DNA of 64,000 nucleotides from Lingula anatina (taxonomy: Eukaryota; Animalia; Brachiopoda). The stretch spans positions 8,866,001 through 8,930,000 of the forward strand of contig CM120646.1 in the NCBI GenBank assembly GCA_051362555.1. The letters run 5' to 3'. Of this stretch, positions 12,319-58,520 are shown in pieces (position 1 is the stretch's first letter; the number at the start of each line of letters is the position of its first letter). A program made the position numbers and the translations under genes. The notes under the pieces are model-generated. The model ran no database searches, was not told where the DNA came from, and worked only from the letters and a program-made list of their open reading frames with translations.

Positions 12319-12363
<45 letters not shown>

Positions 12364-28029: not shown

Positions 28030-28081
<52 letters not shown>

Positions 28082-34000: not shown

Positions 34001-37000
34001 AAGTGTAACCAAGTTTTAAAGGATATTATCAATTTCAAAAGGATTAAATAACTTTATTCATGGCGTCATCTCCTTGATTAAGTTTAAATCAGTCATATGG
34101 CAACTGGCTGTGCGAAGGAAGCTATTTGTATAGAGAATATTTGTATTGTCATCACAGATCATCAGAGTAAGTGTGCTCAGTCAAACCTGGATTGTCCATG
34201 CTGTCTTAAGAGACTCCAGATCTCTCAGTCAGACAAATAAATGTAAAGATCAGTCAGTTTGTAGTTGATATCTGGAAAACATATCATAGCCACTGTGTCA
34301 CTTGCTGTCACTAGTGGCCCCTGTGACAGAATTGGTGAAAAAACCCAGATGGAAAAAATGCTCTTAAAAACCTTTAATTTGATCTTTAGTTTCTCAACTT
34401 ACTCATTGAAGGTATGCTCTGGTATTCATGAAAAAACAGATAAAGTTTTGAAAAATATTCTCTTTTATACAATATTATTATCTAAGTCAATAAGAGGCAC
34501 TTTAAAAATTAGTGGTGATTATGCTGTAAATAATTTAGATTTTGTTGCATCAAAACTGACAAAAACCCCATTTTGTGCAGTTACATGTAAACACAACAAA
34601 ATTTTTGTGACTTTTTTCATTTTTACACTTGAGCAATTTTAGTGTGTGACACAGATTATGACTGCATCTGTTTTGCAGGATAAGATGTGGTAAAAGATGG
34701 AGCAGATATTCCAGAGGCAGCTCCAGAAGGTTTGTAAGTTAACATAAAAATTCCAATGGGCATGGCTAAATCTTTGTTGTAAATACATTAAGTTGGAAAT
34801 GCCCTTTCCATTTAAATTCTTGCTTTGGCATATGCAGTTATTAAATATTATTGTACCATGGCTCTGGTGGTACATATGGTGTCAGTCCAGACCCATCTCA
34901 TCTGCCATATCTGCCAACATTTCACCATTACCGCTTCTCCTAAACTACAAAGGCCTGTGTACCCATATTTTGGATTTAGGTCACACATAATCTCAACTCG
35001 TACCACATAAATTTTGGGCTCTGTCGCTGAACTGGTCTAGGAATGGCAGTCCTCACAGTGCACCCTTGTCCAAAATTTGCAAAATTAAATGCTAAATATC
35101 TCGCAATTATGGGAAAAAATTACTACAGATGGCTGAGCAAAAGTCATGTGGAGACTTCAAATTTGCCCTTGGATTTTACCTTTGATGCTTATGTCAAGGT
35201 CAAACAGGCCAAAATTTTTTGCAAAAAAAAGTTTGTGCTGATTTTCAGAACCTACACAGACATAACCTATAATATTATGGGCAGGTGTTACACTTTGGTT
35301 TGTCTTGGGGTCAACAGGTGCATTGTCAGTAGCCATTAGATGCCGAAACTGAGTACTGTCTTATTTTGGAACCTTAAATGCAGGTTGCTTTTGAAAATCA
35401 TCAGTGTCTGTACATAAAAATTACACCAAATATTGTTTGGAAAATTCTGATGCATTGTTGACATAAAGGTCAAAGGCAAAATCCAAGAGCATATTTTAAG
35501 TCTTCGTCATCGTCGTCATTGCCTTGCACTTTCACTGATAACTCGATAAGTGGAACACCATTTAACCTTTTGACTTGAAACTTGCAGAACTGATGAATGT
35601 TCATAATACACAAGTCAAGTTTGAAAATCAGCATCATCGGGCCATTTTTATGGAAGTTATGCTGTTTTATTCACTTTTTTTTAGCATTTATGCAACACCG
35701 AAAACATAACAGGTGGAAAACCGTTTTAACTTTTGGCTTGAAACTTACAGAAAGGATGATAATTCATAATACACAGGTCAAGTTCAAAAATCAGCTTGTA
35801 TGCCATTTTTATGGAATTTTTGCTGTTTTTTCAACTTTTTCAGCATTTATGCAACACTGATAACCGTTTTTCCTTTTGGATTGAAACTTAAAGAACTGAT
35901 GAATATTCATAATACACAGGTCAAGTTTGAAAATTGGCATAATCAGGCCATTTTTATGAAAGTTATGTCGTTTTGTCACTTTTTTCAGCTAATATGCAAC
36001 GCCTATAACACATTTCAAGGAAAATCGATTGGCCAATTGTCTTGAAATTCACAGGAGTAATCAGTGTTACTAAAATACAGAAAATAAGCTTGATTGGTTA
36101 AGTTATGCCTTTTTATATAAGTGCTAGTCACATTTGGGTGGTTAGTTTGTAATTTTCCCCTAGCTTATCACTAGCTAAGTTCAGAGCTATAAAGTCACTT
36201 GCCTAATTAAGTTTCAAGTGGCCATTTAATGAGATAACATAAAATTCACTTGTCAGATTTTTAAGTTTACATTGACGGGTATCTATTTTATTCTGTTGGA
36301 AGACCATCAAAAATGGGGGATTGATCAACAAAGATAACTTGGAATACTGCCAGAAGATATCTCTGGATCCGCTCCTGTTATTGACCATGTTAGCTGTTTT
36401 GCATGATTTAAATTTATTTTTGATTGACTGTGCTATTATAAGCATTATTTATTATTGCATTAAAATTGAAAAAATGACCTATTTTCTGCATCTTAATTCG
36501 AAAAACAAGCTTGATCAGTCCAGTTTTAATTAATTTTTTATTATACATAAGTGGTTTTTCCTTAGATTTAATTGTTAGTCAGTTTCATTATTGAACTAAT
36601 TAGATTGATAAAAGTTTTTTTTTTTCATTTTGTGCATCTTAATAATATAATAGTATTGTTAGTTGATTATATAAAAATGAAGATAAACTTGTTATTGTGT
36701 ATTGTGTAATAAAGTATCAAAAATGGAAATAAACTGATATCATCACAGTTTGTCAGATTGAATCATTCACTATGTTCAGAATTTCAGAATAGAACAAATA
36801 GGACATTTAAATTTTATCTATTGATTTTTTTCTTTTCTCAACAATTTTGTTAGTGGATCATATAAAAATGACTGTAAATTGATTATTTTGTTTTATGTAA
36901 AAATGTGTTATAAATGAAAATAAATTCATTTCAGTACGGGTACCTTTGTTTACATTTTGGTGTTTTCAAGGTGTGACTTTGAAGCTCCATAGTCCTTGAA

Positions 37001-40000
37001 GACATTTACTAGTCATATTTTCTTAATATCCGTGTAACCTGCAGTGCATAGTTTTAAGATTGGTGGTGTTAATGATTGTAATTTTGCATCAAAATGGAAG
37101 GAAACCCTATTTTGAGCACTGTCGCCATATAGCGAACATTATTGGAAAACCATTTCACTTATTCTTCTGAAATTTATAGGAAAGAAACATAGGACTAAAA
37201 TCCATGTTCAGTTGGTAAATTAATCGATTGGTTAATTCTTCTGGAAGTTATACAGGTTTCTGTGAAAATTTAATTTTTCACATATTTTGTTTGAAAATTT
37301 TAATAACTGGTTGATTCTCCCCTTTAATATATAACTAAATAGTCATGATCTGATTAACTACAATTAGTGATGTGATCAGTACTGTAATATACATGTACTG
37401 GTGTCAGTGTCTGCCTTCGAAAGACATTTCAAGTTAAAAGCAATAGTCAGTGCTACGTACTTTTCAAGCTACAAACAAAAGACAGTACTAATTAATTTTC
37501 AAGTTACTTTGATATATTCTTAGAAATGCAATGCAATTTAGAATTTAATTTCTATGGCATACTCAAAAATATAAAAGCCGCATTTTGGATGGAATGTGCA
37601 GCAGTAACTGCAGTTTTATTACACTATGGGTTAATTCTAGTGGAGAGTTGAACATATAAGCCATCACACTTTTTGGGAAGATTCTATCCTCTCATCATGA
37701 GATTACCCATAATCCCAAAATTAGTTCATTTGACTAATGAGATGCAGTGACCTACAAATGTGCAGTGCAGCTACTTACAAGTCAGGGATTGACAAGGTTT
37801 ACAGAAGTCTGGTAAGTTGTAAATTTCAGTTTAATATTCATAGGTATGTAAGGGGAGGAAATTTTACTGCTCTTGAAAACAATTTAAGAGCAAATATATA
37901 ACAAAAAGTCTTAATCAACAGTTTAAAACATTATACATAACATCAGATGCTGAAGATAATCATGATGTTAAATCTGAATCCCAAAGCTTTATCTGATACT
38001 GTGTAGTAACTTTTGGAATTGTGCATCAACATTGCTGATCAGAAAATGGAGAAAAATTAAACTTATTGAGGAGAATTTGCCCTTAATGGATTTATAGGGC
38101 GGAATGGGTTTTATGATGTTGAAAGTAGCCTGTGGTTATCGTAAGGGGTCAAGCTTCATTCTATGTCACAGTAATTGGTGATATTACTGGTAGCATTATA
38201 ATATATTTCTTGAGTCACCTTAGTTTCTTCTCAACAGTGGTGATGGGGAAAGGCCAAGGTTTATGTTTTTGATACACCGGGGTATTAACATGAATGCTGG
38301 ATTAAGTAGTCTTTATTTATTCATCGGGTATATATCATATTCTTCCTCTGTTTCTTCCAGCTCACAGTTGAAGCAAAGAAGCCACCCAGTGTGCCATTAG
38401 AATGTAAGTATTGTTTTATATTATCTAAGTACCAGAAATATGCATTTTATCTAGATAGCTACTAGTACTAAAGAAGTTTAGTACATAGAAAAAATAATAC
38501 TTGTAGATAGGTGGAAACCTTATTGTAGGCAATATGTGGGTAGATTATTTTGAGACAGCAGCTTTTTATGACATTATTTTATTTATATAAAACCATTGTT
38601 TGTTTTCCTGAAAACTAAAAAGCCCATGTCTACTCTAGGGTAGCCCTAACACTCACCAATTTAGCCAAATGCTACAACTGACTTAAATTGGCTAAACAAA
38701 AAGGGCTTGATTTGGCTAATTTTAGTCAAATTAAAACCATTTGGATAACAAATTGACAAAAAAAGTGGTGATTTGGCTAAGCGAAAAAAATTGCTAGCAC
38801 TACCGCAGCTACTTATTGGTTTTTTTCTATTAGAAAAATGTCAAAGTAAGTTTGATGCTGTAGAATGGACCCCTAAAGCTTAGTTACTGAACTGCTTGAG
38901 CTAATTTTCAATTGATGACCTTTCTTAGAGTTTCGAATGACCTTGTATATGACAGATGTAGAGTACTATGAAATTTATTTAGGTATCAAATACTTTTCTT
39001 TTACTCAGATACTAAGGTTGAGCTGTTCATTGGTAAATACTTGTACTGATTCAGTTTTAAATAGGCTCTCTGGGCTCTTATAGTCAAATTTTCAAGAGAT
39101 TTACATAATATTACACATGTTCGTGTAAAAAAATTCCCAGGTACACATTTTCTTTAATGATTCAACATGCTCTGCACCTGTATAGCATTTACAGAGTATG
39201 AGGGTGGCTAACTGTGCAGAATGATTATTTCAAACAATCTTTCTTAGGTTTATATTGAGTCTCAATTTTTTACAGCAAGCCTGTAGTATATTCAGGCTAG
39301 AATGTAGACTTTTACAGTTTTGAAGACAATAAGTAGTTCATTTACGGTATACATGTAAAAACATGCTTGCTGCAGAAATGGGGGCCAGATCAGTGTTGGA
39401 CTTATTTTAATAGTTCTCACATGTGCTTCTCACAACAGGACACCCCAGATTTCTATCCCTTAATTAATGCCACATTTCTTTATTGGAGAGAAATTGCCTC
39501 TCATGTATTCACTGGACAGAATGGGTTTTATGGTTTTGAACAGCTGTGATATAAAAAGCAGTATTGTTAAGTGTACTTTGCTCCAAAGGACGTCAATTTT
39601 TGTTCTGTATCACAGTTATTGGTGATGTTACTGGTAATATTTTAATAAAGTTAAAGACATCTCTTTACTTTAAGTTTCTTCTCAATAATGTTGCTGATAA
39701 AAAATAAAGCAGTAGGATTTGGCTTAAAAACATCGTCTTTCCTTATTCATTGGGTATATGTCATATTCTTCCTCTGTTTCTTCCAGCTGACAGCTGAAGT
39801 GTAAGAAGCCACCCAGTTGAAGTTAGTCAGCATAATCAGTGTGCCAATAGAATGTAAGTATTTATTTAGATATTGTCATTTAGGTCTCAGGATCATTTAA
39901 GTACCAGAAATGTGCATTTGATTTAGATAGCTACTAGACACTAAGTACAAAGAAAAGGTTATATATATATATATATATACGATGCTTTATGATAGGCAAA

Positions 40001-41036
40001 ATGTGGGTAGTTTATTTTGAGACGGGGAAGGTCTTTATGGCATTATCTTATATAATACTGTTGTAAATTTTTCTAAAATCTTAAAAGTCTGTGTCCACTG
40101 ATTGGTTTCTCCATGTGTTAGAAAAGTCTCAAAATAAGTTTTTCACTGTTTTAGTCCATGACTGCTTGTTAACATTTAATAGTTGCTTGAATATTTTTAT
40201 ATTCATCTAGTAGGCCTTTTCATAAATACAATGCAGTAGTACACACATCCACTGTTTATTCCTCTCAAAATAAGTGTAAACATAAATGAAAAAATGTATA
40301 GCATTTACAGAGTATGAGGGTAGGTAACTGTGCAGAATGATTATTTCAAACAATATTTCTTAGGTTTATATTGAGTCTCCATTTTTACAACAAGCCCATA
40401 GTATATGGTATTCAAGCTAGAATGTAAACTAAGCAGATTTGTAGATGATAACTAGTTCAACTGTGTAAAAATGTGTAATTGATAGACGCTTGTTGCAGAA
40501 ATAGGGAATCAGTGTTTTGCTGATTTAACTTGTCATCCAGATCATCATCTTTTGGGCTGAGAAAATCTTTTTTTTACCCCTTTGGAAACAGAATGAGTTT
40601 CTAATACAGGGTAGTAGCATTCTTATAACTTTACTGTGCCTTTAAATGTAGTACACATTGATTTGAGAGTGTCATTATTAAAGGTAACCATCAACACCAC
40701 ACTTCAGCAACTTTTAGAAGAGATTAGTTCATTTTCCCTGTCCCCATATTAAGAGGTATGTTTGATTAATAAAGGGATTAAGCTTAATTGCTTTCAAGCA
40801 GACAGTCAGTCTATCCCACCCAGCTGTAAGTTGACTTAACTTGTGTATATTCCCTTTGAAGATTTATTATAATGTCTAAATTCATCATCCATACAAGGGA
40901 TGAACAATTTAAATATTTATTAATGGAAGGATTTTATTTAAATAAATTGTGAAAGTAGCTTTTTGTATGTGATGTACAACAAACAAGTGGTTGAAAAGTG
41001 TTATTCATTCTGTATAACTTCAGTGAGGTAAATTTG

Positions 41037-41088
<52 letters not shown>

Positions 41089-47000: not shown

Positions 47001-50000
47001 AGGTCTGATCCTCAGTACAGGAAAACTGAACAAGAAGCTCAGAGACTGAAGCGTTCTCAGTCAGATGTAAAGGCCAATATTGTAAAGCACAAGCAGTTGA
47101 AAAGATCTGATCCTCAGTATAGGAAAACTGAACAAGAAAATCAAAGACAAAAACGTTCTCAGTCTGATGTGAAGAACAAAATTCTAAAGCATAAACGGTT
47201 GAAAAGATCTAATCCTGATTACAAAGTTACTGAGAAATACCATAAAAGGTTTAAAAGATCTGATCCCAATTTCAGAATATGTGAAAGGAAGAGTGATGCA
47301 GTTTCTAAGCGTAATAAGAGACAGAAAATCAATACTTCTCTTCAAGAATTGATACAACAGTTCCACAAAAAAGTTGCTGAAGGTTGTACTTACACATGCT
47401 GTGTATGTCAACAACTCTGGTACAGACATTCTGTCATAAATAGAGAGCCTATTTTGAATATACAGAATAATGCAGTTAATCAATGCAGAGAAGCTGGTGA
47501 TTTATTCAACAGTAATTGGATGTGTCAAACATGCGCTTCTCATTTGAAAAAGAACAAAATACCTCCATGTGCTATTGTGAATAGCATGTCATTTCCAGAA
47601 AAACCCAGTTTCTTGGATTTAAAACCTTTAGAGTGGAGATTAACTAGCCCAAGGTTAGTTTTCATGAAGCTTCATCAAGCTCCACGTGGAAAACAATACA
47701 AATTAGAAGGGAATGTTGTAAACATACCAGCAGATGTAACATCCACTGTAACAAAGTTACCAAGAACTGAGACCGACAGTTCAACAATTAAAGTTCAACT
47801 GAAAAGAAATGTGAAATTTAAGAGTTATGCATATGCTCAGAATGTAAGGCCAAACAAAGTACTTGAAGCAGCAAATTGGTTAACTGCTAATGGAAAACTG
47901 TATCAAGAAAAAGGAATAACTGTAGACCCAACATGGAAATTAGAAGATAATCCCTGCAGCTCTAGCACATTAGAACAAACGGAAAAGGGGCATACAACTG
48001 TGAATAACTTGAATGAGGAACAAATACATAACTTACTAAAAGAATTTGTTTGTGTTGAGTGCCCTTCTGATTGTAGAAATATCCAATTTTCTGAAGAAGG
48101 GCACCTTATGGATCAGGATGGTGATTTTGCAGATGAATTCTTTGTCATTTTAGACAAGCCATATAAATATGACCCATCTGTTAATGTTGACAAATTTGTG
48201 GCTACTATTCAAAGTGAAAGAAAAATCAATGGTACCTCACAACACCCTCATGTTTTAGAAGTACCTGCATTCAAATCACAAACCAGAGGCAGATCAAGAT
48301 ATCGCATGAAGACAAATAGAATCAGAGATTCTAGTAGAGTAGGAATTGAAAAACTCCTTGCTTATAAGCGTCACCATGTACTTAGAAAATACAAGCATTT
48401 GAAACTAAGTTATTATGGCTTGTTCAAAAGAAAAAAACAAGGTAAAACATGGTACTCAAGATACTTCAGGACTGTAAAAAAAATTCGACACAGAGTAAGA
48501 TATGTTTCACACTTACAAAAAGAGTTATCATACATACAGCAACGACATTTATTACCTCAGTTTTGTGAATCTGAAAATGAGGTACAACATATACAGACTG
48601 ACGATACTTTATTTTATTTTATGCCTGTAGATGCCCTGTGGCAAGAGAAAATGACTGACGAACTAAATTTACAATTGAAGCGTCCTCACAATTGGCCTGA
48701 TACTAATCATAATATTCTCTTGACAAAACCTAGCCAGTTAAAAAAAGTTATTGGAGATGGAAATTGTTTTTTTCGAAGTTTGTCTTTTGCCATTACTGGT
48801 TGTGACACATTGTACAGTGACGATCACATTATACTTAGAAACAGAATCACCAGTCATATGAAGCAGCTTGAGTATGCTTTTTCAAGTAGTATGTTAGGTG
48901 ATAATGACAGGACATCAGCAAATTATGTAAGAAGAACAGGCATGAATAATGTAAATGTTTGGGGTACTGAAACAGAAATACTTGCTGCAGCACATTTACT
49001 ACAAACTGACATCTATGTCTACTGCAAGCCTGCCAGCTCTTGGAAATGGTTAAAGTATTCAGCTAAATTTCTTGATCAGAACAATCATTCACATGAGACA
49101 GCCATTTACCTGCAAAACACTAATTCTGATCACTATGACGTAGTGCAAAATGTATGCGACTTATCATTACCTGCTAATGGCATAAGCAAGAACTTACTGC
49201 AAAAGGAGGAGGTGACACGGGCTAATTCAGGTAGAGATAAATACTCACAGTCAAATGATACTGAAGATTGGGATGAAATTGATGACAAAGAAATGAAACC
49301 TGGTATAAGAGATACAATGTTAACAGGCAGAGACTTCTTGGAAGACACAGAGAGAGAGAAAATTTACTCTTTTGCACCTGGTCAAGAGGGTCAGCCGCTC
49401 AGCATATTTAGAGATGAACACTGTGAAGAACTGGCTTTTCCAGAAATATTTCTTGGCAATGCACGGCCTGCAAATAAAAGCAGACTTGTTCCCGTACACT
49501 ACAGTGACATCTGCAAGTCTGAATTAAGACGCAATGACAGAAGAGCATCAATGTGTGTTGACAACATATTTTTTAAGGCAAAAAAATTGCAGATGAAAAG
49601 ATTGATTGGGTCAACTGCTCTTGCTGTAAGAAAACATAAAACAAATGGAAAGAAACTCACTGCAGGAGATTTTAAACAGTCTGGAGCTGTTGAGAAACTT
49701 TTACATTTTGATGAAGGTTATACATTCTTAAGAGGAGTTCGTGGTTCCCCCCCATATTTTGAGAAAGCAAAGAAAGATTTATTTGCAATGATACGCCAGC
49801 TAGGATCAGCAACTTTTTTCTGCAGTTTTTCTTCTGCTGAAACAAAATGGAATCATTTACTCAGAACTCTGGGTAAATTGGTAGATAATAAAGATTATTC
49901 AGATGCACAGCTAGAACAACTCAGTTGGGATGAAAGATGTCGCTTGATTCAGAGTGATCCTATTACTTGTGCACGACATTTTGATTATCAAGTGCAGTGT

Positions 50001-53000
50001 TTGATACATCATTTTCTGTGCCACAAGGTAGCACCATTAGGTAAAATACAAGATTTTTTCTACCGTGTAGAATTTCAACATAGAGGTAGTCCACATATTC
50101 ACATGCTTCTTTGGATAGAAAATGCACCTATATACGGTGTCAATTCTAATGAAGAAATTATACAATTTGTTGATAACACAATTTGCTGTAGCAATCCAAA
50201 TGAAGATGATCCATTAAAAGAACTTGTATCTTATCAGACACATAAACATACAAGGACATGTATAAAAAATTTGAAAAAATCTTGTAGATTCCATTTTCCT
50301 CAGCCTCCAATGAAACAAAGTGTAATTTTGACACCCCTTGATGATGCCTCTCAGAAGAAAGAATATGCAAAAATTTGGAAGCAAATTCATAATATTATAA
50401 ATGACAGAGATTTCACAGGCATTAGTCTCACATTTGAAGATTTTTTAAATAAAGTGCAAGTCTCAGAAAAAGATTATATCTTGGCAGTGAGATCTACAAT
50501 CAAGACTGATACATTGTTCCTAAAAAGACTCCCAAGTGAAATTTGGATAAACAATTATTCCAGGTCATGTTTACAAGCATGGAGAGCAAATATGGATATT
50601 CAGTTTGTTTTAGACATATATGCTTGTGCAACATATATTGTAAATTACATTTCCAAAGGACAAAGAGGCATGTCTGATTTACTTTATCAAGCTTGCAAAG
50701 AAGCTAGAGAAGGTAACAGTGACATAAAACAGCAAGTCCGTCACATTGGAAACAAATTTCTTAACAATGTTGAAATTTCTGCTCAAGAAGCTGCTTACAT
50801 CACTTTACAATTACCCATGAGAAGAGCATCTCGTTCATTTGTATTCATTAACACCACACCCCCTGAAGACAGAGTACGATTGCTTAAACCTCTGGAAGAA
50901 ATAAAAGAATTAGAAGATGAATCTGACAATATTGAGTCTAGCAATCTCTTGAAACGTTACAGCAAACGCTTACCTTCTTTAGACAATGTTTCCCTTGCAG
51001 ATTTTGCTGCATATTATGACAACAATTTAAATGTTATGAGTAGAAGCAAGAAGAAATCTTCTAGGTTATTAGATACAGATGGCATGCCCTTGGAGAAGCA
51101 CGACCTTGATAATTATGAGGATGATATTCAAGACATTCCACATGAAACAGACATTATAAAACGAAAAAAAGCAAAAATTATTCGCAGTGTTTGGTTCAGT
51201 AAGAGTTTATATCCTGAAAAACATTACCGTGAGCTTTTGATGTTGTATATTCCATGGAGAAATGAAGAATCTGACATTTTACAAAATTTCGAAAGTTATG
51301 AACAGAGATGTACACATTTGGAGAATGAGATTTGGGAACAACAGAGATTGTATTCTCCATCTCAAGATGAATTGCAAAGAGCAATGACAGATCTTAATAA
51401 CATGGATAGTGAGGATGATGATATGTGGGCCACTGTTGCACCAAATACTGAGTGTCAAAATGAAGCTGATCAATGTGAACCAAGTGATGTGGTGCAGTCT
51501 TCTGATGGTCTGTCTTATGATTTAGCAGAAGATTTGGGTATACATGTATCTGCCAAAAGTTGCACTGAAGAAGAAATTGTCAATAAAGAGATGTCTGATA
51601 TCAGTTACTTTCAAATGATTAGAAACATGAACAAACAACAGTTGGAGTTTTTCCATCATGTTTTACATTTAATCAAGTCCAATTCTGATCCGTTTCATAT
51701 ATTCCTGTCTGGAGGTGCTGGTGTAGGGAAATCATTTGTCACCCGTGCTCTATATCAGGGTATTTTGAAGCATTTGTCAAGTTTACCTGGTGAAGACTTT
51801 CGGACAATTAGAGTTGCTTTGGTTGCTCCTACAGGAAAAGCTGCTTATAATATTGGTGGCCATACAATTCACAGTTTACTGAAAATTCCAGCAAATCAAA
51901 GTTTCAAATACAAAAGACTCAGTCCTGATGTGCTAAATAGTTTCAGGTGCAAACTTGGATCACTTAAAGTTCTCTTTATTGACGAGGTTTCAATGGTTGG
52001 GAGTAAAATGTTAAGTTTCATCAATGAACGGCTCAAAGAACTGAAAAACAATGACAGACTGTTCGGAGGTGTTAGCATTGTGGCTATAGGTGACCTTTTT
52101 CAACTGAAGCCTGTGTTTGATAACTGGATATTTGAAAATCCTGACAATGACTATTGTCCATTAGCTACTAATCTGTGGCAGAAACATTTTTACATGTATG
52201 AACTGACCCAGATCATGCGTCAAAAAGACAGTAAAGAGTTTGCAGAAATTTTAAATAGGCTTAGAGAAGGAAATCATACAGACAAAGATATAAAAATTCT
52301 CAGTGAACGTCAAGTTGATAAATCAAAAACTAACCGACAACCATTACTTCATGTTTTCCAAACAAATGCACTGGTTGAACATTTCAATCATGCAAATTAT
52401 CAAAATGCAAAAGGAGAAAAATTTCAAATTGCAGCCACTGATACAATCACTGGGCCTGTACCAAAACATTTAGAAAACAATATCAGAAAGCAAATTCCAT
52501 TTGATCATAAAAAAACCATGAATTTACGAAGGATTCTGCATATTGCAGTTGGAGAAAGAACAGAAATTGTCCTGAATGTTGACACAGAAGATGGCATTAC
52601 TAATGGTGCACCAAGTGTTATTAAACTGGTAGATTTAGACAGACAAATAATTTGGGTACAATTTGATGCAGAGGACATTGGCAAAAATGCCAGAAGAATG
52701 AACAAACCGTTATACAGTAGCATTATTTCAAAAACATGGACACCTATCTTTCCTGTAAAAAGACAATTTCACCTGGGAAAAACAGGACAATATCAAGTCG
52801 TGAGAAAACAATTTCCACTACAGTTGTCTGCTGCAAAGACAATACACAGATGCCAAGGTGACACATTGAAAGAATTAGCTGTAGATCTCAGTGGTAGAAA
52901 AAATGAACACATGCATTATGTTGCACTAAGTCGTGTAGAAAAATTAGAAGGATTACATATTTTGGAATTAAATGCTGGTAAAATATGCATTTCTGAAAAA

Positions 53001-56000
53001 GTTAAACAAGAAATGAAACGTTTAAGACAAGAAGCACAACTTGTAAAATCCGTATCATTTCTATACGAACAACCAGATGACCACTTTAAAATAATTCATT
53101 GGAATTGCCGTTCTCTTCACAAATACATAGAAGATATCAGAAAGAGTTATGATGTAGAGGAAGCAGATATATGTGCTTTCACAGAAACCAGATTTGCCTC
53201 TAAAGACTTAAATGCTAAATACCAAATAAAAGGTAAATATCTACACCGAAATGATAGTTCTCTCTATAGACAGCATGGTACTGCTATCTACAGTCGCCAT
53301 AGATATGCAAAGAATTTTCCAAAAAATTACAATTCCTCCGGCATTGAGATAACTGTAACACAATTGGAACAATTTCCTGCCTTTGTCATCATCACAATTT
53401 ACAGTCCTCCTCATGGTAAAATGCAAGTTCTTCTTGAGACATTGAAGAATATTATTGGGGCTATTGATAAGGCAAACAAATGCATTATTGTAGGTGACTT
53501 TAATGTAAACTGGCTCCATGAAAAAAATGCAAGTGCCCTCAGAAAAATGATGTGTCATGACCTTCTGTTTAAGCAGTGTGTCACAACTCCAACTACCATT
53601 TATGACTCGGCCTTAGATCTTGTCTTTACAAACTTTGATCATGCAGATCTTAAAATAACAGTTTTGCCTACTTATTTTGGTGATCACTTTCCAGTCTGTA
53701 TGTCATTTCCCAAAAATTGCCTTTAAATATATAGAGGAATTGCTCCAGAGTTTTTTCAAACCTTAGTACTTCCAACAACATCTGTTTAAGACACATACAT
53801 AGCTAAACACATATATTATGCAAAAGTTTCATAGAACAATACTACAAAGAAAGCACATTAACAAAACCATAAAAATTAAACCCTTCTTTTAAAAAAGTTA
53901 CATTTATTTCTACCAATTCATGTGGAGAAACAATGCCACACCCATTTAAGTTTTGAAGAGTCATAATCCAACATATCACTCAATTCATTTGAAAAGCAGT
54001 TGATATGACACATCATCAACCAACAAATTATTCCAGTATAAATATTTTCATATTTCCTTTATTAAGCTACACTTATTAACCCTTTCACAAGAAATAGTAA
54101 CTAGCACTTCATCAAATTGGCATTTCTAACTCTTAATTACCTGTCTTCATCTGTCTTCATTTTTTTTTGTAAGTTACAGTTAGTCATACATTTTCACACA
54201 TTATTGTACTTTTCTTCACTTTTATGAAATTATACATAATATATTGCTAAATATATATTTATAACTATCATATTTTAGACAGATGATGAAGGCAAGGACA
54301 TTATCATCGTATCAGATAGAGTTGTTGTTCAAGAAGAAATGTGTCTTATCACAAGTGACTTAAAGGATGACATGAAGATGGAGAAAAGCATGGCTGAATT
54401 GTTATTTGATACCATAAAAAGTTGGTAAGGTATATACATGTACTTAAATTTACATGTATCATCCTGACCTACCCTTATTCCTCATGCTCCTCATCAGTAA
54501 CAGAGTTTACCAACAATGCCATCACAGTTTGGAAATTAAGTGGACTATGAAGAAATATACTGTGTATTTAATGTCTCTAAACATAAAGAATTTGATGGCA
54601 CATAGTTTGTTAAAATAGTTCTGTTCAGAAGGTTAGTGTAAACATGTTAAATTTCAAGAGCAGTACTACTAATTTCATGCATTAAGTTATGAACAATTTG
54701 ATGTATAGCAGTTGTAAGATAGGGTAAGTTTTAGCCAGTTTGGAGACTAAATATGAGTAGATTTTTTTTATTAATAGAATCTTTATTTAGTGCTATTTTG
54801 TACTGTTACATTCAATAAGGTAACTTCATTAAGATTTCCAGTAAAAAATTCTTAATAATACAGTAAAGATGGCCAGCTACATCTGTGTGTTAAACTAAGG
54901 TATTTGATTGGTACAAATAGTTATTTATTTTCTAGTCGGTCAAAGAGTGTAATAAAAATGTGTCACAATTTGGATATAATAGGCCCATGAAGAAAATATG
55001 TTGTCTGTTTAACACATCTAAAATTAAAGAATTTGATGGCACATAGCTTGTTAAAATTGTTCTGTTGAGAAGTTTAGTGTAAACATGTTTTCTAATTTAA
55101 AGGATTGCACAACTAACCATTTGCACCAGGTTAAGTATATAAGTGTAGAAAATGAAGTTCTTTGTAAAATAGGAGTTTTAGCCAACTTACTAGACCCGTA
55201 CTATGATGATATAATTTAGTTTTTATTATTAGAACTCTGAACTTATTCTCCCCTTTGCACTGATACAATGTCTTGTTTAACAAAGTAACTTCATGAAAAT
55301 TTCCAGCATGATTTTTTTTATAATACAGTAAAGATCATCATCTTCATCTGTGGGTTAGACTAATGTCTTTAATTGGTGCAAAAATTGTTGATATCTTTCC
55401 TTCTTAAGAGTTTTGTAAGAAGTTTCAGGTCTTTTGTTTGTCTCAGTGTTTATGTAGTATTGTAAGTGAATAAAACTTGTGCAACAAGTCAGTTCTTTGT
55501 TCATGTGTCTCTTAGTTGTCTCCTACATCTGTCCATATCATCATCATCCAGCACTTTCATTGATAACATGTTAAGTGACAAACTTTTTTACCTTTTGTCT
55601 TTAAGCTTGCAAAAACGGTGAATATTCATTAAATACTGGACAACATCAAAAGTCAGTTTCATCAAGTTGTTTTTGTTAAAGAGAGGCATTTCTTGTGAAA
55701 TATTTCATTTTCCACATATTAAAGGCGTAACTTTGCAATTCCATATGCCTGAAGACCTTTGCTTTGTAAGTGTGAACTTGAACTCTCATGGGCCTGAAGC
55801 CTTATGCTTTTACTTTCATCGGTATTACATGTTGTGCATAATTAAAACTTGATGTTGACTTTGCACTGAAGTGTAATGTATTACTGCATCAGAATTAACA
55901 GTATCCTATTTTGGGCATGATTATTTTCTGCTTTTTGTCTGTACATTTGACAGCTTTGCTGCCTTGTTTTTTTTGTCAGTACTTTTGACAGCTTTGCTGC

Positions 56001-56338
56001 CTTGTTCCTGAGTAATGTCTGAACATTTGTCAGCTTTGCTGCCTTGTTTCCTGTATTGTGTCTGCATATTTGCCAGCTTTGGTAGTTTTTTTTTTTTTTT
56101 TTTTTTTTTTACCATACAAATGCTCTTACTCCAGCTGGTGGTACAATACTCAGAGGCAGTATCGCCTTTCTGATCCTTTAGTTTTGTATTATTTAAGACC
56201 ACATCTTGTTTGATATAAATGAGTAAGTGAATTCATTGTAGCAGTGGATCCTTATCCAGGAACGGGATCAAGAGAAGGGAGGCATCAAAGCCAAGATCAG
56301 AGAGGAGCAGTAGTTATAGCATTTCCTCCTCATCCTGA
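4393..56338 (+). CDS. PPIG: Peptidyl-prolyl cis-trans isomerase G / NKTR-like SR-cyclophilin gene, 5'-truncated, spliced
   Basis: Phase-compatible GT-AG exons: 4393-4500, 9825-9869, 12048-12135, 17575-17604, 20643-20788, 28351-28513, 29474-29590, 30253-30355, 30662-30975, 32438-32482, (32758-33355/33363), 34679-34729, 56242-56338. They give a cyclophilin domain with PHLDG, the PPIG/NKTR motifs [18 protein letters not shown] and TPPHW, and an RS tail. Confidence 0.9.
4512..5005 (+). mobile_element. Helentron-derived non-autonomous fragment (family B) with ~150-bp tandem units
   Basis: About three AAGTGGAAAAC...CAGGTCAAGTTC...CAGCATATATGCAACA units, shared with copies at 6752, 10667, 18376 and 35500. 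Confidence 0.7.
5968..6430 (+). mobile_element. hAT transposase remnant (ZNF862-like TTF Zn finger plus start of catalytic domain)
   Basis: Frameshifted reading gives [45 protein letters not shown] and [13 protein letters not shown]. Confidence 0.7.
6752..8307 (+). mobile_element. Non-autonomous Helentron (HINE/DINE-like) mosaic: family-B 5' end with family-A 3' end
   Basis: 5' hairpin TGTACAGACA-cagatg-TGTCTGTACA, (GTC)n microsatellite, ~150-bp units, a second 5' hairpin at 7337, and 3' GAGGCaatatcGCCTC hairpin ending CTAGTT. Confidence 0.75.
9309..9668 (-). mobile_element. Decayed inverted copy of the MITE at 21765-22432
   Basis: Starts CACCCTGAGCTT; 9565-9665 is the reverse complement of about 21830-21930. 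Confidence 0.55.
9825..9869 (+). CDS. PPIG: PPIG exon ([15 protein letters not shown])
   Basis: ttttag acceptor, GTAATA donor; canonical cyclophilin motif. Confidence 0.95.
10667..11851 (+). mobile_element. Non-autonomous Helentron mosaic (family-B 5' end, family-A 3' end)
   Basis: TTATGTACAGACACAGATG start, ~150-bp units, and GCTGGTGGCACAATA...GAGGCagtatcGCCTC end. Confidence 0.72.
12048..12135 (+). CDS. PPIG: PPIG exon ([29 protein letters not shown])
   Basis: ttttcag acceptor, GTGAGT donor. Confidence 0.95.
13359..15752. mobile_element. PIF/Harbinger-like non-autonomous element nested in Helentron copy 1
   Basis: TIRs GCCCCGTATGCACAAAA / TTTTGTGCATGCGGGGC with CTG on both flanks (3-bp CWG TSD); absent at the homologous site of copy 2. 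Confidence 0.75.
15880..17140. repeat. 146-bp tandem satellite inside Helentron copy 1 (~8 diverged units)
   Basis: Unit CTCCAAAACTGGCAGAGATAGGTCCATAGTTACTATTGAACTTGAATAGGAAGTC...TGACCTTTGACCTAC. Confidence 0.92.
17575..17604 (+). CDS. PPIG: PPIG 30-nt exon ([10 protein letters not shown])
   Basis: caatag acceptor, GTAAGT donor; His at the CypA W121 position, as in PPIG/NKTR. Confidence 0.93.
18376..20190 (+). mobile_element. Non-autonomous Helentron, family B
   Basis: Perfect 5' hairpin TGTACAGACA/TGTCTGTACA, ~150-bp units, body shared with 7560-7900, 8310-8830 and 36600-37290. Confidence 0.75.
20643..20788 (+). CDS. PPIG: PPIG exon ([15 protein letters not shown]...[14 protein letters not shown])
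   Basis: tgtag acceptor, GTAAGA donor; end of the cyclophilin domain. Confidence 0.95.
21765..22432. mobile_element. MITE with ~77-bp TIRs and 8-bp TSD (hAT- or P-superfamily)
   Basis: CACCCTGAGCTTCAGAGC... / ...GCTCTGAAGCTCAGGGTG; GCGAAGTT at both 21757-21764 and 22433-22440. Confidence 0.9.
22969..25756 (+). mobile_element. Non-autonomous Helentron, family A, copy 2 (young)
   Basis: Perfect subTIRs TATTGTACCACCAGC / GCTGGTGGTACAATA, 5' and 3' hairpins, (CCGGCTCCG)n, homogeneous satellite, CTAG end; inserted in a T-run of the DIRS element. Confidence 0.92.
23980..25550. repeat. 146-bp tandem satellite (~11 near-identical units)
   Basis: Units recur at a 146-bp period; they explain the repeated minus-strand pseudo-ORFs. 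Confidence 0.95.
26760..27560 (+). pseudogene. DIRS tyrosine recombinase remnant
   Basis: [79 protein letters not shown] and AGWS, broken by stops and frameshifts. Confidence 0.85.
28351..28513 (+). CDS. PPIG: PPIG exon, Ser/Glu- and Lys-rich segment
   Basis: cttgtag acceptor, GTAAGT donor; open in the expected phase ([13 protein letters not shown]...[13 protein letters not shown]). Confidence 0.88.
29474..29590 (+). CDS. PPIG: PPIG exon ([19 protein letters not shown])
   Basis: catcag acceptor, GTAATA donor; conserved PPIG/NKTR motif. Confidence 0.9.
29906..30112. repeat. Two-copy ~104-bp tandem duplication
   Basis: AAAAAAATATACAATGTATGTAG...CTGCAGTxCATAATTT occurs twice, nearly identical. 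Confidence 0.85.
30253..30355 (+). CDS. PPIG: PPIG exon (…[14 protein letters not shown])
   Basis: ctgtag acceptor, GTAGGT donor; conserved SGRKIKGRG. Confidence 0.9.
30662..30975 (+). CDS. PPIG: PPIG exon ([22 protein letters not shown]…)
   Basis: ttttaag acceptor; conserved TPPHW. The donor GTGTCT at 30976 is weak but phase-compatible. Confidence 0.85.
32438..32482 (+). CDS. PPIG: PPIG exon ([14 protein letters not shown])
   Basis: tttctag acceptor, GTAAGC donor; phase 2-2. Confidence 0.85.
32758..33355 (+). CDS. PPIG: PPIG RS-domain exon ending in TAG
   Basis: gtctcag acceptor in phase 2; about 13 copies of [13 protein letters not shown]; stop at 33353-33355. Confidence 0.8.
32815..33310 (+). 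repeat. 39-bp coding minisatellite (13-aa RS repeat)
   Basis: AGATCTAGGTCAAGGAAGTCGAGGTCACCTTCAGAAGAG unit with a 39-bp period. Confidence 0.9.
34679..34729 (+). CDS. PPIG: PPIG exon ([16 protein letters not shown])
   Basis: ttttgcag acceptor, GTTTGT donor; open only in phase 2; R/S-rich. Confidence 0.7.
38100..40520. repeat. Diverged two-copy tandem duplication (~38100-39400 and ~39520-40520)
   Basis: Shared blocks such as TCTTCCTCTGTTTCTTCCAGCT...AATGTAAGTA and TATAGCATTTACAGAGTATGAGGGT. Confidence 0.8.
41400..43265 (-). mobile_element. 5'-truncated, decayed non-LTR retrotransposon (LINE ORF2: RT plus C-terminal Zn knuckle; RTE-X/CR1-group-like)
   Basis: [26 protein letters not shown] and YADD, then [13 protein letters not shown] and CQIC...[10 protein letters not shown] in the same frame. 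In-frame stops at 42207, 41805 and about 41680. Confidence 0.92.
45444..53726 (+). CDS. Helentron RepHel transposase, 2760 aa: repeats - Zn finger - OTU protease - HUH Rep - Pif1 helicase - APE endonuclease
   Basis: Zn finger CCVC...CQTC (47397-47535). [25 protein letters not shown] (48753-49145). Rep [15 protein letters not shown] (50070) and YIVNYISK. Helicase GGAGVGKS (51711), APTGKAA, DEVSM, GDLFQL, TIHRCQG, YVALSRV. Endonuclease WNCRSL, TET, GDFN, LDLVF, GDH (53090-53726). Confidence 0.96.
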   Translation: MPRLKKQSLTTRRALQKKKTKESRQRVAEANRPLTVSASAATPTSVGTVLSVATSVATPTSVGTVLSVATSVATPTSVGTVLPVATSVATPTSVGTELTEFTELTEFTENTEFTEITETTEITIDSDDTVHAAHKDATVDTDVTDATVDTAVTDATVDKDVTVDTAYPEMPVSLSATIAADPSSKFMKYSDPIAPSDMSALLIKSKMPVNPKLSAVPHKLKKKSVPSEIPKNDPNIMILKTSLKPSEKKVHVRKLDTRFRKNSKTGLIDKDANSFQYRKVPLTKHTGNSITSDSISSFFDKTNLHKPHMKMLHDEMKKQLKWTEDKQQSKTDTVRKTLLDSSLMESSGTDRNVLKRKKNKIRMRLLRSDPKYRKTEQESQRLKRSHSDVKSNILKQKQLKRSDPHYRETEQEAQRLKRSQFHMKTNILKHKQLKRSDPDYKCTEKNQKRLKRTDPKYRENEQEAQRLKRSQSAVKNNIVKHKQLKRSAPHYRKTEQEAQRLKRSQSDVKANIVKHKQLKRSDPQYRKTEQEAQRLKRSQSDVKANIVKHKQLKRSDPQYRKTEQENQRQKRSQSDVKNKILKHKRLKRSNPDYKVTEKYHKRFKRSDPNFRICERKSDAVSKRNKRQKINTSLQELIQQFHKKVAEGCTYTCCVCQQLWYRHSVINREPILNIQNNAVNQCREAGDLFNSNWMCQTCASHLKKNKIPPCAIVNSMSFPEKPSFLDLKPLEWRLTSPRLVFMKLHQAPRGKQYKLEGNVVNIPADVTSTVTKLPRTETDSSTIKVQLKRNVKFKSYAYAQNVRPNKVLEAANWLTANGKLYQEKGITVDPTWKLEDNPCSSSTLEQTEKGHTTVNNLNEEQIHNLLKEFVCVECPSDCRNIQFSEEGHLMDQDGDFADEFFVILDKPYKYDPSVNVDKFVATIQSERKINGTSQHPHVLEVPAFKSQTRGRSRYRMKTNRIRDSSRVGIEKLLAYKRHHVLRKYKHLKLSYYGLFKRKKQGKTWYSRYFRTVKKIRHRVRYVSHLQKELSYIQQRHLLPQFCESENEVQHIQTDDTLFYFMPVDALWQEKMTDELNLQLKRPHNWPDTNHNILLTKPSQLKKVIGDGNCFFRSLSFAITGCDTLYSDDHIILRNRITSHMKQLEYAFSSSMLGDNDRTSANYVRRTGMNNVNVWGTETEILAAAHLLQTDIYVYCKPASSWKWLKYSAKFLDQNNHSHETAIYLQNTNSDHYDVVQNVCDLSLPANGISKNLLQKEEVTRANSGRDKYSQSNDTEDWDEIDDKEMKPGIRDTMLTGRDFLEDTEREKIYSFAPGQEGQPLSIFRDEHCEELAFPEIFLGNARPANKSRLVPVHYSDICKSELRRNDRRASMCVDNIFFKAKKLQMKRLIGSTALAVRKHKTNGKKLTAGDFKQSGAVEKLLHFDEGYTFLRGVRGSPPYFEKAKKDLFAMIRQLGSATFFCSFSSAETKWNHLLRTLGKLVDNKDYSDAQLEQLSWDERCRLIQSDPITCARHFDYQVQCLIHHFLCHKVAPLGKIQDFFYRVEFQHRGSPHIHMLLWIENAPIYGVNSNEEIIQFVDNTICCSNPNEDDPLKELVSYQTHKHTRTCIKNLKKSCRFHFPQPPMKQSVILTPLDDASQKKEYAKIWKQIHNIINDRDFTGISLTFEDFLNKVQVSEKDYILAVRSTIKTDTLFLKRLPSEIWINNYSRSCLQAWRANMDIQFVLDIYACATYIVNYISKGQRGMSDLLYQACKEAREGNSDIKQQVRHIGNKFLNNVEISAQEAAYITLQLPMRRASRSFVFINTTPPEDRVRLLKPLEEIKELEDESDNIESSNLLKRYSKRLPSLDNVSLADFAAYYDNNLNVMSRSKKKSSRLLDTDGMPLEKHDLDNYEDDIQDIPHETDIIKRKKAKIIRSVWFSKSLYPEKHYRELLMLYIPWRNEESDILQNFESYEQRCTHLENEIWEQQRLYSPSQDELQRAMTDLNNMDSEDDDMWATVAPNTECQNEADQCEPSDVVQSSDGLSYDLAEDLGIHVSAKSCTEEEIVNKEMSDISYFQMIRNMNKQQLEFFHHVLHLIKSNSDPFHIFLSGGAGVGKSFVTRALYQGILKHLSSLPGEDFRTIRVALVAPTGKAAYNIGGHTIHSLLKIPANQSFKYKRLSPDVLNSFRCKLGSLKVLFIDEVSMVGSKMLSFINERLKELKNNDRLFGGVSIVAIGDLFQLKPVFDNWIFENPDNDYCPLATNLWQKHFYMYELTQIMRQKDSKEFAEILNRLREGNHTDKDIKILSERQVDKSKTNRQPLLHVFQTNALVEHFNHANYQNAKGEKFQIAATDTITGPVPKHLENNIRKQIPFDHKKTMNLRRILHIAVGERTEIVLNVDTEDGITNGAPSVIKLVDLDRQIIWVQFDAEDIGKNARRMNKPLYSSIISKTWTPIFPVKRQFHLGKTGQYQVVRKQFPLQLSAAKTIHRCQGDTLKELAVDLSGRKNEHMHYVALSRVEKLEGLHILELNAGKICISEKVKQEMKRLRQEAQLVKSVSFLYEQPDDHFKIIHWNCRSLHKYIEDIRKSYDVEEADICAFTETRFASKDLNAKYQIKGKYLHRNDSSLYRQHGTAIYSRHRYAKNFPKNYNSSGIEITVTQLEQFPAFVIITIYSPPHGKMQVLLETLKNIIGAIDKANKCIIVGDFNVNWLHEKNASALRKMMCHDLLFKQCVTTPTTIYDSALDLVFTNFDHADLKITVLPTYFGDHFPVCMSFPKNCL
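45553..45731 (+). repeat. 48-bp coding tandem repeat ([16 protein letters not shown]) built from short hairpins
   Basis: GCCACGCCCAC at 45564, 45612, 45660 and 45708. Confidence 0.9.
46530..47275 (+). repeat. Basic ~40-aa (120-bp) coding repeats, [25 protein letters not shown]
   Basis: About six units visible in both DNA and protein. Confidence 0.9.
54545..55385. repeat. Diverged two-copy ~430-bp tandem duplication
   Basis: AAAGAATTTGATGGCACATAGxTTGTTAAAAT and TAATACAGTAAAGAT...CATCTGTG each occur twice in the same order. Confidence 0.7.
56242..56338 (+). CDS. PPIG: PPIG terminal coding exon ([32 protein letters not shown])
   Basis: cattgtag acceptor in phase 2 continuing 34729; R/S-rich; AATAAA downstream at 56776. 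Confidence 0.7.
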
Positions 56339-58520
56339 GAACAAGAGTGCTTGCTTGAAGATAACCATGAGGACTATTGCTTCAGATTAAACACAAAAAT
56401 CAATCTTAAAACTTATTTTGAAGATTCTTCACTGCTTTTGTCATACACACCCTAGTATTACACGTTTTGTGTATTTATTGTTCTTCATTTTTGTCGTGGA
56501 TTATGAAATGACTGATTTAGTAACAATTCCATTGCCTTAGAGGCATGTAACAAGTGTTCATTAGATACATTTGTGCAGGAAGTGACAAATTGGGCATTTT
56601 AATATATAATCTTTTTCCTGTATATTTTTATATCAATTTAACAGTTGTCTTAAAGTCCTTTAATATTCAATTCACTAGTTATAGACCGTTTCTGTATGGG
56701 GAAAGAGAGATATAAATAGAGCACAATTTGTTCTTCTCTAGAGTTCATGAAATATTGATGCCTGTAGGTGGTTGAAATAAAAGAACGTGAATATATTTAT
56801 ATTATTATTTGTATTATATTTGTATTATATTAGGTCTTGCTTTGTCATAATGTCATAGTTGAAAGACAGTGTATCATTTAACTTTCAAGTTGTAAAGTGC
56901 TTCATTTTTTAAATGACCCTAATTTGCAGTTTTGCCATCTGCATATTTTATAACAGTAAGACCGTATTCCCATTTGTATTCCTCATGATAATGTGTTCAC
57001 AAATAAGTGATCCTAAACCATTTACAAGATTTAGAGGAAAATAAGATTGTTCCATGTTAACTGTTAACTTTGTCAATTTTACTGTCAGCATGTACATGTG
57101 CTCCACATCAACAAATAAATACAGCTGCAATTGATATGAATTACAATTTTCTTGAAGGATAGGGAATTCTAAATGGCATAACATTCTGGTCTCAAAACCA
57201 AGGGTGACAGGATATGAAATCTTGAGAGAAAAGCTGATTTTTAAAAATTTATTAATACCTGACTGTTGAAGCTTCAACATGATGGACCCCATGGAAGCTT
57301 ATAAAAGATTCAGTCACTTGGTATGTCTGGTAGAAAAAACTTGTGGTAAATTTTCATGTAAAGAATGCTATAAATATATAACATTATTTCATGAGACTAA
57401 AAAAATTTACTGTTGAACATTTTATAAAGGCATGTATTATTATGCATACAATTTCAAAAATAAACATTTCATATATTATTTGATATTTTCTGATGAAAAT
57501 ACATCTGTGTAGTCTTTTGTTAATAATCATAAGTGGAAATGTTTCATTCTGTACACAAAATGAAAAAGCAGAAACGAAGCATTAGGTCACACAGTGACCC
57601 TGCTTAGTGTGTATTATGAGACTGAACACTCCTCACCAATAAATCACTATTTGTATCAGTCCATTATAACAGCTGTGCTTCATTTATTGAACGGTTTTTG
57701 ACATTTCGTTGGTGTCAAACACTTCAAATATCAGTATTTGTAATTGTCATATACCTTTTAAATTAAAAAAAATCTTGATTAGCATCACAATGAAATAAAA
57801 TTACATTATGTACCTGTATAATTGTGTAATGACGTCTTTACTTTGTACGGCAATCGAACTTTTAGTACAGTTTGAGACTAAAATTGTACTCCCAGACACG
57901 CAAATATTGCGTTGTGTTTGCTAAGGCTTCGAGTTAGCAAGTGGGTGCAATAGCCACCGCAAATAGCAATCAATCGTTATGCTTGAGTGTGGTGGCAATT
58001 CGCGATGCTTACGTGTTAAAGAGCCCATGATGTTGTTATCAAAGAAACTAGAGCTGTATCAATGTGCAACTCATACTGTTAAATGGCTTGGCTCAGATCT
58101 CACTGCCAGAAACCACAAACTATATTTAGAAATTTATCTGATCCTATGCCCATCATCTGTGGTGTGTCTGGAGGATCCATCCTAGGTAAACTCGTGCTCA
58201 TTGTCTTGATAAATGATCTCCCATTCAAACAACTTCTGAACAAAATCAAAAACTAAACTGTGATATGAAATACAATATAAATAAAAATGGTCACCAATGT
58301 CAAAAAAAGTTTTATTACTACGAAATAAAAACATGAACATTTACCTGAGAACAGTAAGAAGCTATTAGTGATTTTTTATCTTATGAGCTCTGAAAAGACC
58401 TAGGGGATAGCACAGTATGTCAGGCACAGGGGTACGTCCCTACTAATCGGGTGACCGAGTTTCGTTAGTATCATGTGAAAGCACGGTGTCCTTTCTGTGT
58501 CCTGTAATACGCCCCCATTT

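What the first reader, a model, noticed from the sequence alone, without database searches (positions are those of the whole stretch)
34848..56183. A ~21.3 kb Helentron fills 99% of the last PPIG intron and shares termini with satellite-carrying satellites of itself in upstream introns
Seen: the intron is 34730-56241. Family-A 5' homology starts 118 bp after the donor, and the family-A 3' subTIR/hairpin ends 58 bp before the acceptor, with an intact RepHel-EN ORF between. The same ends bound non-coding copies at 12507-17494 and 22969-25756. Known: Helentrons insert in TT without TSD and mobilise HINE/DINE-type partners. Inferred: an unusually long autonomous driver and its non-autonomous partners sit in one host gene, and the pre-insertion intron was about 176 bp.
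Basis: partly seen in the sequence, partly recalled or inferred. Interest (0 to 1): 0.85.

Follow-up and report, generated by a model that had tools for sequence, protein, structure and literature searches.

The report
Large Helentron transposon inside brachiopod gene
An intact transposase gene of a known rolling-circle transposon group (Helentron) lies between worn ends 21 kb apart, with four other transposon pieces nested inside, in what is likely the last intron of a brachiopod cyclophilin gene; it is likely one element and likely a relative, not the direct parent, of the satellite-carrying copies nearby, so it is a useful example of a known kind.

Summary
The coordinates hold. A Helentron 5' end (34848), an unbroken 2760-aa DUF6570-OTU-Rep-helicase-endonuclease ORF (45444-53726) and a 3' end (56183) lie in the 3' part of PPIG of Lingula anatina or a very close relative. 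Four corrections follow. (1) About 4.9 of the 21.3 kb are nested pieces: a LINE fragment, a TTAA MITE and two copies of a second Helentron-type family (B) with its own ends. (2) Both terminal hairpins are weakened, and the 5' module is only about 70% like the satellite copies: same family, not their parent. (3) The intron is inferred; the RefSeq protein stops at 33355 and no junction read was seen. (4) No empty site appeared in two DNA runs, so the 176-bp intron is untested. Contigs of sibling copies tie the ORF to about 41212-55517; the link to 34848 rests on parsimony. The length lies within the Repbase range. Two extras: the 146-bp satellite derives from the family's own 5' module, and the nested LINE has 3 stops while the longer ORF has none. 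The scan reported a similar 26.7-kb Helentron in another genome. New member of a known kind.

The parts
4389..33355 (+). PPIG (cyclophilin G) coding exons found in the window, ending at the stop used by the RefSeq protein
   Evidence: tblastn of L. anatina XP_023931354.1 (P0123): colinear exon hits at 89-100% identity, last SR-repeat exon 75% with gaps
34679..34733 (+).
   Evidence: Sequence only; not in P0123; splicing 33329 to 34679 would give a stop at once, so the big intron may lie in the 3' UTR (inference)
34848..35400 (+). Family-A 5' end and 5' module; terminal hairpin degenerate, 10 of 15 bases match the 3' subTIR
35400..37286 (+). Family-B copy without a 3' end: its 5' subTIR lies inverted at about 35398-35421, then GTC microsatellite, 158-bp repeats and about 340-bp repeats
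38148..40516 (+). Old internal duplication (38148-38634 / 39592-40099 and 39179-39397 / 40295-40516) whose best-kept part looks like a short exon with splice signals; predicted 5' leader exons
   Evidence: exon reading is inference
41228..43253 (-). Nested 5'-truncated LINE fragment (RT domain), 3 premature stops, flanked by a 16-bp direct repeat (41212-41227, 43238-43253)
   Evidence: RVT_1 E 1e-33; LINE-less joint 41237-43259 in contigs of X1 and X6, short side 26 bases
44556..44908 (.). Nested very-high-copy MITE with TTAA on both sides (Kolobok-like; label recalled)
   Evidence: inverted arms 24 nt, 88%; loose ends of many flanks at 44556 and summed contig depth about 229,000
45444..53726 (+). 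Intact 2760-aa Helentron transposase ORF: N-terminal repeats, DUF6570, OTU protease, Rep (HUH), PIF1 helicase, AP endonuclease; ATG directly after a splice-acceptor-like pyrimidine tract and AG
54284..54427 (+). Exon-like 47-codon open stretch, no homolog found
55478..56085 (+). Decayed whole family-B copy: 5' part, one repeat unit, 3' module ending at about 55968, then 38-bp repeats of the B 3' end
   Evidence: (score 137 against a maximum of 62 in 300 shuffles); many-flank loose ends at 55968-55969
56112..56183 (+). Family-A 3' end: subTIR, palindrome with mismatches, AG-TT
   Evidence: junction held by single-locus contigs in X1 (56132-57500, 0 differences) and X6 (56159-56952)
56242..58100 (+). 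Transcribed region, likely the PPIG terminal exon or 3' UTR (right limit approximate)
   Evidence: mean depth of minus-mate reads in three bins from 56275: 11.3, 4.8, 3.5 (X12) and 4.2, 3.9, 0.4 (X15); sense inferred from the usual stranded protocol
12507..17494 (+). Non-coding family-A copy (HINE) with 146-bp repeats
22969..25756 (+). Non-coding family-A copy (HINE) with 146-bp repeats
7332..8307 (+). Composite copy: family-B 5' end, B 3' end, then family-A 3' end
10662..11851 (+). Composite copy: family-B 5' end, B 3' end, then family-A 3' end

Best explanation
A Helentron (HLE2) transposase ORF lies intact between a family-A 5' end and a family-A 3' end 21.3 kb apart, and these likely bound one element that likely entered a T-rich spot of the last PPIG intron by rolling-circle copying, carrying older nested pieces with it. 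Shown: the domains and catalytic motifs, the ends, the nested LINE, MITE and two family-B copies, and sibling copies in the species. From the family's known biology: Rep nicks at one end, the helicase peels off a single strand, synthesis stops at the 3' palindrome, and the copy goes into TT without a target duplication. Inferred: the 10.6-kb 5' part is an intron-rich leader spliced onto the acceptor before the ATG; the lineage kept moving, and so kept its ORF under selection, after the LINE fragment had begun to decay; a family-B copy lodged just inside the 3' end gave rise, by end bypass, to the short B-start/A-end copies at 7332 and 10662. This copy has weakened hairpins and almost no RNA, so it is likely immobile now, while a closer-knit set of siblings 6-9% away would supply transposase to family-A non-coding copies.
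For: Only one A-type 5' end and one A-type 3' end lie in the interval (profile search), and no stronger terminal-type hairpin turned up. Rep motif 2 is the Helentron form; Walker A, OTU and endonuclease motifs are present. Summed contig depth in X1 and X6 is 390-1350 over the ORF bins, about 320 at 43528-44134 and 130-360 at 53847-55667, against 76-106 in the single-copy bin at 56275 (a rough measure). Variant contigs in both runs join 41237 to 43259 and 55479 to 55517, so siblings share the interior from about 41212 into the right-hand B copy (short sides 26-30 bases). Of 27 listed ORF differences 12 are silent, 15 change a residue, none is a stop; about 25% silent is expected at random (P = 0.02). 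Last 60 bp match the two A copies at 52 and 53 of 60.
Against: No read or contig evidence covers 34848-41100, so the left end is linked by parsimony only. B-start/A-end composites exist on their own twice in this window, so 55478-56183 could be a third one. The 5' hairpin is broken and the 5' module is about 70% like the A copies, which are 81.5% like each other. No empty site was seen. The 27 differences come from the 40 best-supported of 1280 rows, not a random sample. The two bridging joints have short sides, which the tool flags as weak.
Confidence: 0.58

Rival explanations
1. The span is a pile of separate insertions: an old family-A/B remnant on the left (34848-37286) and a younger ORF-bearing element whose own 5' end is lost or lies between 37287 and 41212.
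For: Left modules are 70-76% like other copies while the ORF is intact. Family-B places occur 10 times in the window, so clustering is common. Clusters of Helitrons next to one another are known (PMC4067079, passage of section 15).
Against: No second terminus was found in the interior. A lone A 5' end and a lone A 3' end would have to fall in order and orientation around the ORF.
Confidence: 0.2
2. The ORF is the transposase of family B (about 35400-55968), which inserted into a short family-A copy; the A ends are a host shell, and the two satellite copies are not its partners.
For: B sequence lines both inner sides of the span and B copies look like a deletion that joins them. B is extremely high-copy. 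The big element shares about 2.4 kb with B and about 0.6 kb with the A copies.
Against: The right-hand B piece is a whole decayed copy with its own 5' part at 55478, and the left B subTIR is inverted. Two separate B insertions explain this without a B driver. Neither end type was found in 70 related loci of other animals, so they do not decide it.
Confidence: 0.12
3. The insertion is old and fixed, and the host keeps the ORF by selection (domestication), read through the acceptor before the ATG.
For: 3 stops in about 590 LINE codons against 0 in 2760 ORF codons (Fisher P = 0.005). Both hairpins are weakened. The right junction is in both DNA runs, once on a haplotype with 5 changes and 4 gap letters in 790 bp. 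The window's own version appears at about single-locus depth in X1.
Against: RNA depth over the ORF is at most 1.3 in two runs (about 6% of each read), and the listed reads carry sibling variants. Selection during transposition explains the same pattern. X1 may be the source sample. The PPIG donors at 33329 and 34729 would not join the ORF in frame (sequence).
Confidence: 0.1

Closest known systems
Helentron / Helitron2 / HLE2 with OTU and AP endonuclease (PMC4067079; PMC11417382; PMC6431247)
   Same: One ORF with Rep, PIF1 helicase, C-terminal endonuclease, OTU, DUF6570; G-S-P in Rep motif 2; subTIR, 5' inverted repeat, 3' palindrome, T-rich flanks. 429 relatives in the first search, the best 50-52% identical, from corals, echinoderms, hemichordates and molluscs where named.
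   Different: 5' end lies 15.2 kb before Rep motif 2 (Repbase: 75% under 5.3 kb, maximum 27.5 kb); no RPA gene found; two nested layers of ends from two families.
Cg_HINE, Pearl, DTC84, MgE of bivalves and DINE-1 of Drosophila (PMC7492417; PMC4067079)
   Same: Non-coding copies with subTIR, inverted repeat, central 140-180-bp tandem repeats, 3' palindrome, TT target.
   Different: Host is a brachiopod; a coding element with the same 3' subTIR is in hand, which the oyster study could not find; the 146-bp repeat matches the family's own 5' module.
HINE-Helentron partner pairs of mite, Culex and Drosophila (PMC4067079)
   Same: Shared subTIR and last 60 bp define one family and subfamily.
   Different: Those partners are simple deletion derivatives at 84-99.9% identity; here the match outside the last 74 bp is about 70%.

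Membership tests
Helentron (HLE2) | Rep motif 2 with S between G and P, preceded by F/Y-x-R | tested here: met
   [15 protein letters not shown] at residues 1539-1553; criterion from PMC4067079 section 7
Helentron (HLE2) | PIF1 helicase fused after Rep | tested here: met
   PF14214 E 5e-25, PF05970 E 4e-23
Helentron (HLE2) | C-terminal AP endonuclease; DUF6570 marker; OTU | tested here: met
   PF03372 E 4e-11, PF20209 E 6e-17, PF02338 E 6e-11
Helentron (HLE2) | subTIR pair of 11 bp or more at the two ends | tested here: inconclusive
   3' subTIR perfect; the 5' copy matches only its first 10 bases, against 15 of 15 at 22970
Helentron (HLE2) | 3' palindrome after the subTIR | tested here: met
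   present but weakened, -4.0 against -7.1 and -8.0 kcal/mol in the A copies
Helentron (HLE2) | Insertion at TT without target duplication | tested here: inconclusive
   TT at both ends and no repeat in the flanks; no empty site available
Helentron (HLE2) | Placement in the HLE2 clade of a Rep/helicase tree | not tested
   no tree built
Same family as the copies at 12507 and 22969 | 11 bp identical subTIR and 80% over the last 60 bp (PMC4067079) | tested here: met
   3' subTIR identical; 52 and 53 of 60
Direct autonomous parent of those copies | Partner is a deletion derivative at 84% identity or more | tested here: not met
   about 70% over the 5' module; 146-bp array and most of the A 3' module absent from the big copy
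One mobile 21.3-kb unit | Other copies share both boundaries, or an empty site exists | tested here: inconclusive
   no genome held; contigs link 41212-55517 only; right junction filled in 2 of 2 DNA runs
Last intron of PPIG | Spliced junction from about 34730 to 56241 | tested here: inconclusive
   RNA downstream of 56242; RefSeq protein ends at 33355; no junction row listed

The most novel reading that the evidence does not exclude
A Helentron with worn ends has been immobilised and fixed in the PPIG gene of Lingula, and the host keeps its whole Rep-helicase-endonuclease-protease protein intact and reads it by splicing onto the acceptor before the ATG: a domesticated Helentron transposase.
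Probability: 0.1. Interest if true: 0.75.

Novelty: new member of a known kind. Interest (0 to 1): 0.36.

Why it matters
The oyster study could not link any coding Helentron to satellite-carrying HINEs and left open whether their repeats are captured or home-made (PMC7492417, discussion). This locus offers a coding element of the same terminal family and a 146-bp repeat that matches the family's own 5' module. It also shows how ends of two families become joined into new short elements. The intact ORF gives a template for studying a Helentron enzyme. None of this changes the known picture of the group; only the domestication reading would.

Tried and rejected
No whole genome is held, so copy boundaries could not be aligned. 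The search for related loci with the single protein found nothing; with alignment A1 it gave 70 loci from other animals, and none of the 70 held A- or B-type ends at E below 1. 318 six-frame fragments of the non-coding parts gave one weak hit (E 0.005) in those loci, taken as chance. The 47-aa exon-like stretch had no hit in the Atlas or among 1.84 billion representatives. No RNA holder was listed for 27500-36500; this is no evidence on expression. A PPIG-transposase fusion was rejected: donors at 33329 and 34729 do not meet the ATG in frame. An internal second terminus was sought and not found. The T47 run at 41040 was first taken as the LINE tail; the direct repeat and the contig joint put the LINE end near 41228-41238 instead. 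No earlier finding exists for this genome.

Full report
Host gene. Cyclophilin exons run along the + strand. A search with one exon returned 1 protein among 91 candidates, PPIG of Lingula anatina, 97% identical. That RefSeq protein maps colinearly from 4389 to 33352 and ends at the stop at 33353-33355. The two exons that flank the finding are therefore not in it. Sequence after 33355 looks intronic, with a donor at 33330. Splicing it to the acceptor at 34678 gives a stop at once, so the big intron may be in the 3' UTR. A serine/arginine-rich frame also runs across 34679-34729 and 56242-56338, but it needs another upstream phase. The donor may be 34730 or 34734. RNA of two runs covers 56275 onward on one strand (mean depth 11.3 in X12, 4.2 in X15 in the first bin) while the ORF is near zero. 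PPIG is the only evident upstream source, so a long last intron is likely but its limits are not shown.

The ORF. 45444-53726 is one stop-free frame of 2760 aa with DUF6570, OTU, Helitron Rep, PIF1 and AP endonuclease domains. Catalytic-type motifs are in place (motif labels recalled except Rep motif 2). Motif 2 reads RGSPHIH, the Helentron form (PMC4067079 section 7). The first search found 429 relatives among 3515 candidates, the best 50-52% identical. Two L. anatina RefSeq fragments are 82% and 71% identical, so the family has older branches in the species. The ATG follows a pyrimidine tract and AG, which suggests a spliced leader (inference).

Family-A ends. Profile searches found 3 A-type 5' ends (12507, 22969, 34848) and 5 A-type 3' ends (8307, 11851, 17494, 25756, 56183) in the window; the profiles were built from these copies and found no further end. 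The big copy matches the two satellite copies over about 550 bp at 70-71% and over the last 74 bp at 88-89%; those two match each other at 81.5% over 876 bp. By the published rule it is the same family and subfamily (52 and 53 of the last 60 bases), but published partners match at 84-99.9%. Its 5' hairpin folds at -4.8 against -11.4 and -12.3 kcal/mol, its 3' palindrome at -4.0 against -7.1 and -8.0.

Family B, not in the finding. A second non-coding family has its own perfect 5' hairpin, a GTC microsatellite, 158-bp repeats, about 340-bp repeats and its own 3' end. One copy without a 3' end lies at 35400-37286, its subTIR inverted (23 of 24 bases). A whole decayed copy lies at 55478-55968 (score 137; best of 300 shuffles 62), followed by 38-bp repeats of its end and then the A end. 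Many-flank loose ends at 55968-55969 and summed depth near 200,000 show that B is very abundant. The copies at 7332-8307 and 10662-11851 start at a B end and finish at an A end with the same junction order. They are the closer structural relatives of the big element's right end, and also the reason that this end could be a separate insertion.

Other nested pieces. A 5'-truncated LINE fragment (RVT_1) lies between 16-bp direct repeats; one contig each in X1 and X6 joins 41237 to 43259 without it (depth 54 and 162; short side 26). A TTAA-flanked MITE lies at 44556-44908. The four pieces sum to 4,875 bp and leave about 16.5 kb. In Repbase 75% of autonomous elements are under 12,338 nt, the longest element is 39,893 nt and the 5'-end-to-Rep distance reaches 27,501 nt (PMC11417382). 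The element is long, not out of range.

One element or several. Reads and contigs were laid on 41100-59300 only (4 runs: X12, X15, X1, X6). Summed contig depth was 76-106 in the single-copy bin, 390-1350 over the ORF bins, about 320 at 43528-44134 and 130-360 at 53847-55667; the tool warns that this is no true copy number. X1 holds long contigs 6-9% different at depth about 700 (48 of 527, 41 of 591, 39 of 620 letters), which suggests several near-identical siblings, and contigs with 0 differences at depth 103-138, the window's own version. Variant joints at 41237/43259 and 55479/55517 in both runs show sibling sequence spanning from about 41212 into the right B copy; their short sides make them weak. 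The right junction is held by contigs in both runs (X1 56132-57500, 0 differences; X6 56159-56952) and no empty-site row was listed, but only 24 of 1439 loose ends and 15 of 145 joints were shown, and X1 may be the source sample. The stretch 34848-41100 has no read evidence. I put one A-type element at 0.58, separate insertions at 0.2, a B-type driver in an A shell at 0.12.

Age puzzle. The LINE frame has 3 premature stops in about 590 codons, the ORF none in 2760 (Fisher P = 0.005); at one stop all covering contigs read a sense codon (42209). At 2% neutral decay an ORF of this size would stay stop-free with P = 0.0006. Of the 27 ORF differences among the 40 rows shown of 1280, 12 are silent, 15 replace a residue and none makes a stop (P = 0.02 against random). 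The ORF was thus under selection after the LINE began to decay: most simply because the lineage kept moving with its passenger, less likely because the host keeps it (0.1). RNA depth on the ORF is at most 1.3 with about 6% of each run read.

Satellite origin. The 146-bp unit aligns with positions 265-397 of the A 5' module. Two units scored 62 and 68 against the modules at 22969 and 12507, reached by 0 of 500 shuffles each, and 43 against the big copy, reached by 1 of 500. This favours an origin from the element's own sequence, one of two scenarios left open in PMC7492417.

Literature. PMC4067079: passages and sections 7 and 10. PMC7492417: passages and the first part of the discussion. PMC11417382 and PMC6431247: passages. 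PMC13121700, a L. anatina genome paper: passages; 'Helitron' has 0 occurrences in its main text. No supplements were read; Repbase entries or that paper's repeat library may already hold this family. 'Helentron' with 'brachiopod' gave 0 papers; 'Lingula anatina' with 'Helitron' gave 7, and none of the 6 listed is on this subject by title; 'Helitron', 'domesticated', 'RepHel' gave 6, none reporting a case by title or abstract start.

Verdict. Real, and a Helentron beyond doubt; a composite of nested pieces that is probably one element; a family relative of the satellite copies, not shown to drive them. New member of a known kind, interest 0.36.

Noticed in passing
window 4500-56200: All 10 family-B places and all 3 family-A 5' ends found lie on the PPIG sense strand, although T runs outnumber A runs only 1.1-1.5 times there. 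Unexplained orientation bias.
   Followed up: partly
window 23980-25549 and 16165-17132 against 35051-35225: The 146-bp satellite unit is homologous to part of the family-A 5' module, pointing to a home-made repeat.
   Followed up: yes
window 35396-35503: A 100-bp inversion holds the family-B 5' subTIR and a second copy of part of the A 5' module; possibly a template-switch scar.
   Followed up: partly
window 54284-54427: Exon-like 47-codon stretch with acceptor and donor inside the element, downstream of the ORF; no homolog found.
   Followed up: partly
window 54494-54917 / 54936-55382: Old tandem duplication of about 440 bp, 70% alike, in the element's 3' part.
   Followed up: no
window 45547-45939 and 46542-47266: The transposase N-terminus holds in-frame tandem repeats of 48, 9-27 and 51/102 bp; sibling contigs differ in their number.
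   Followed up: no
window 25900-27600: Decayed frames that resemble a tyrosine-recombinase (DIRS-like) retrotransposon just after the 22969 copy; label recalled from the translation.
   Followed up: no
window 60662-62334: Two arrays of a 184-bp repeat that appear to face each other, downstream of the gene.
   Followed up: no
window 34158-34166: A 9-nt stretch between a CAG acceptor and a GTAAGT donor could be a PPIG micro-exon.
   Followed up: no
window 58600-59300: Another very-high-copy repeat by contig depth.
   Followed up: no
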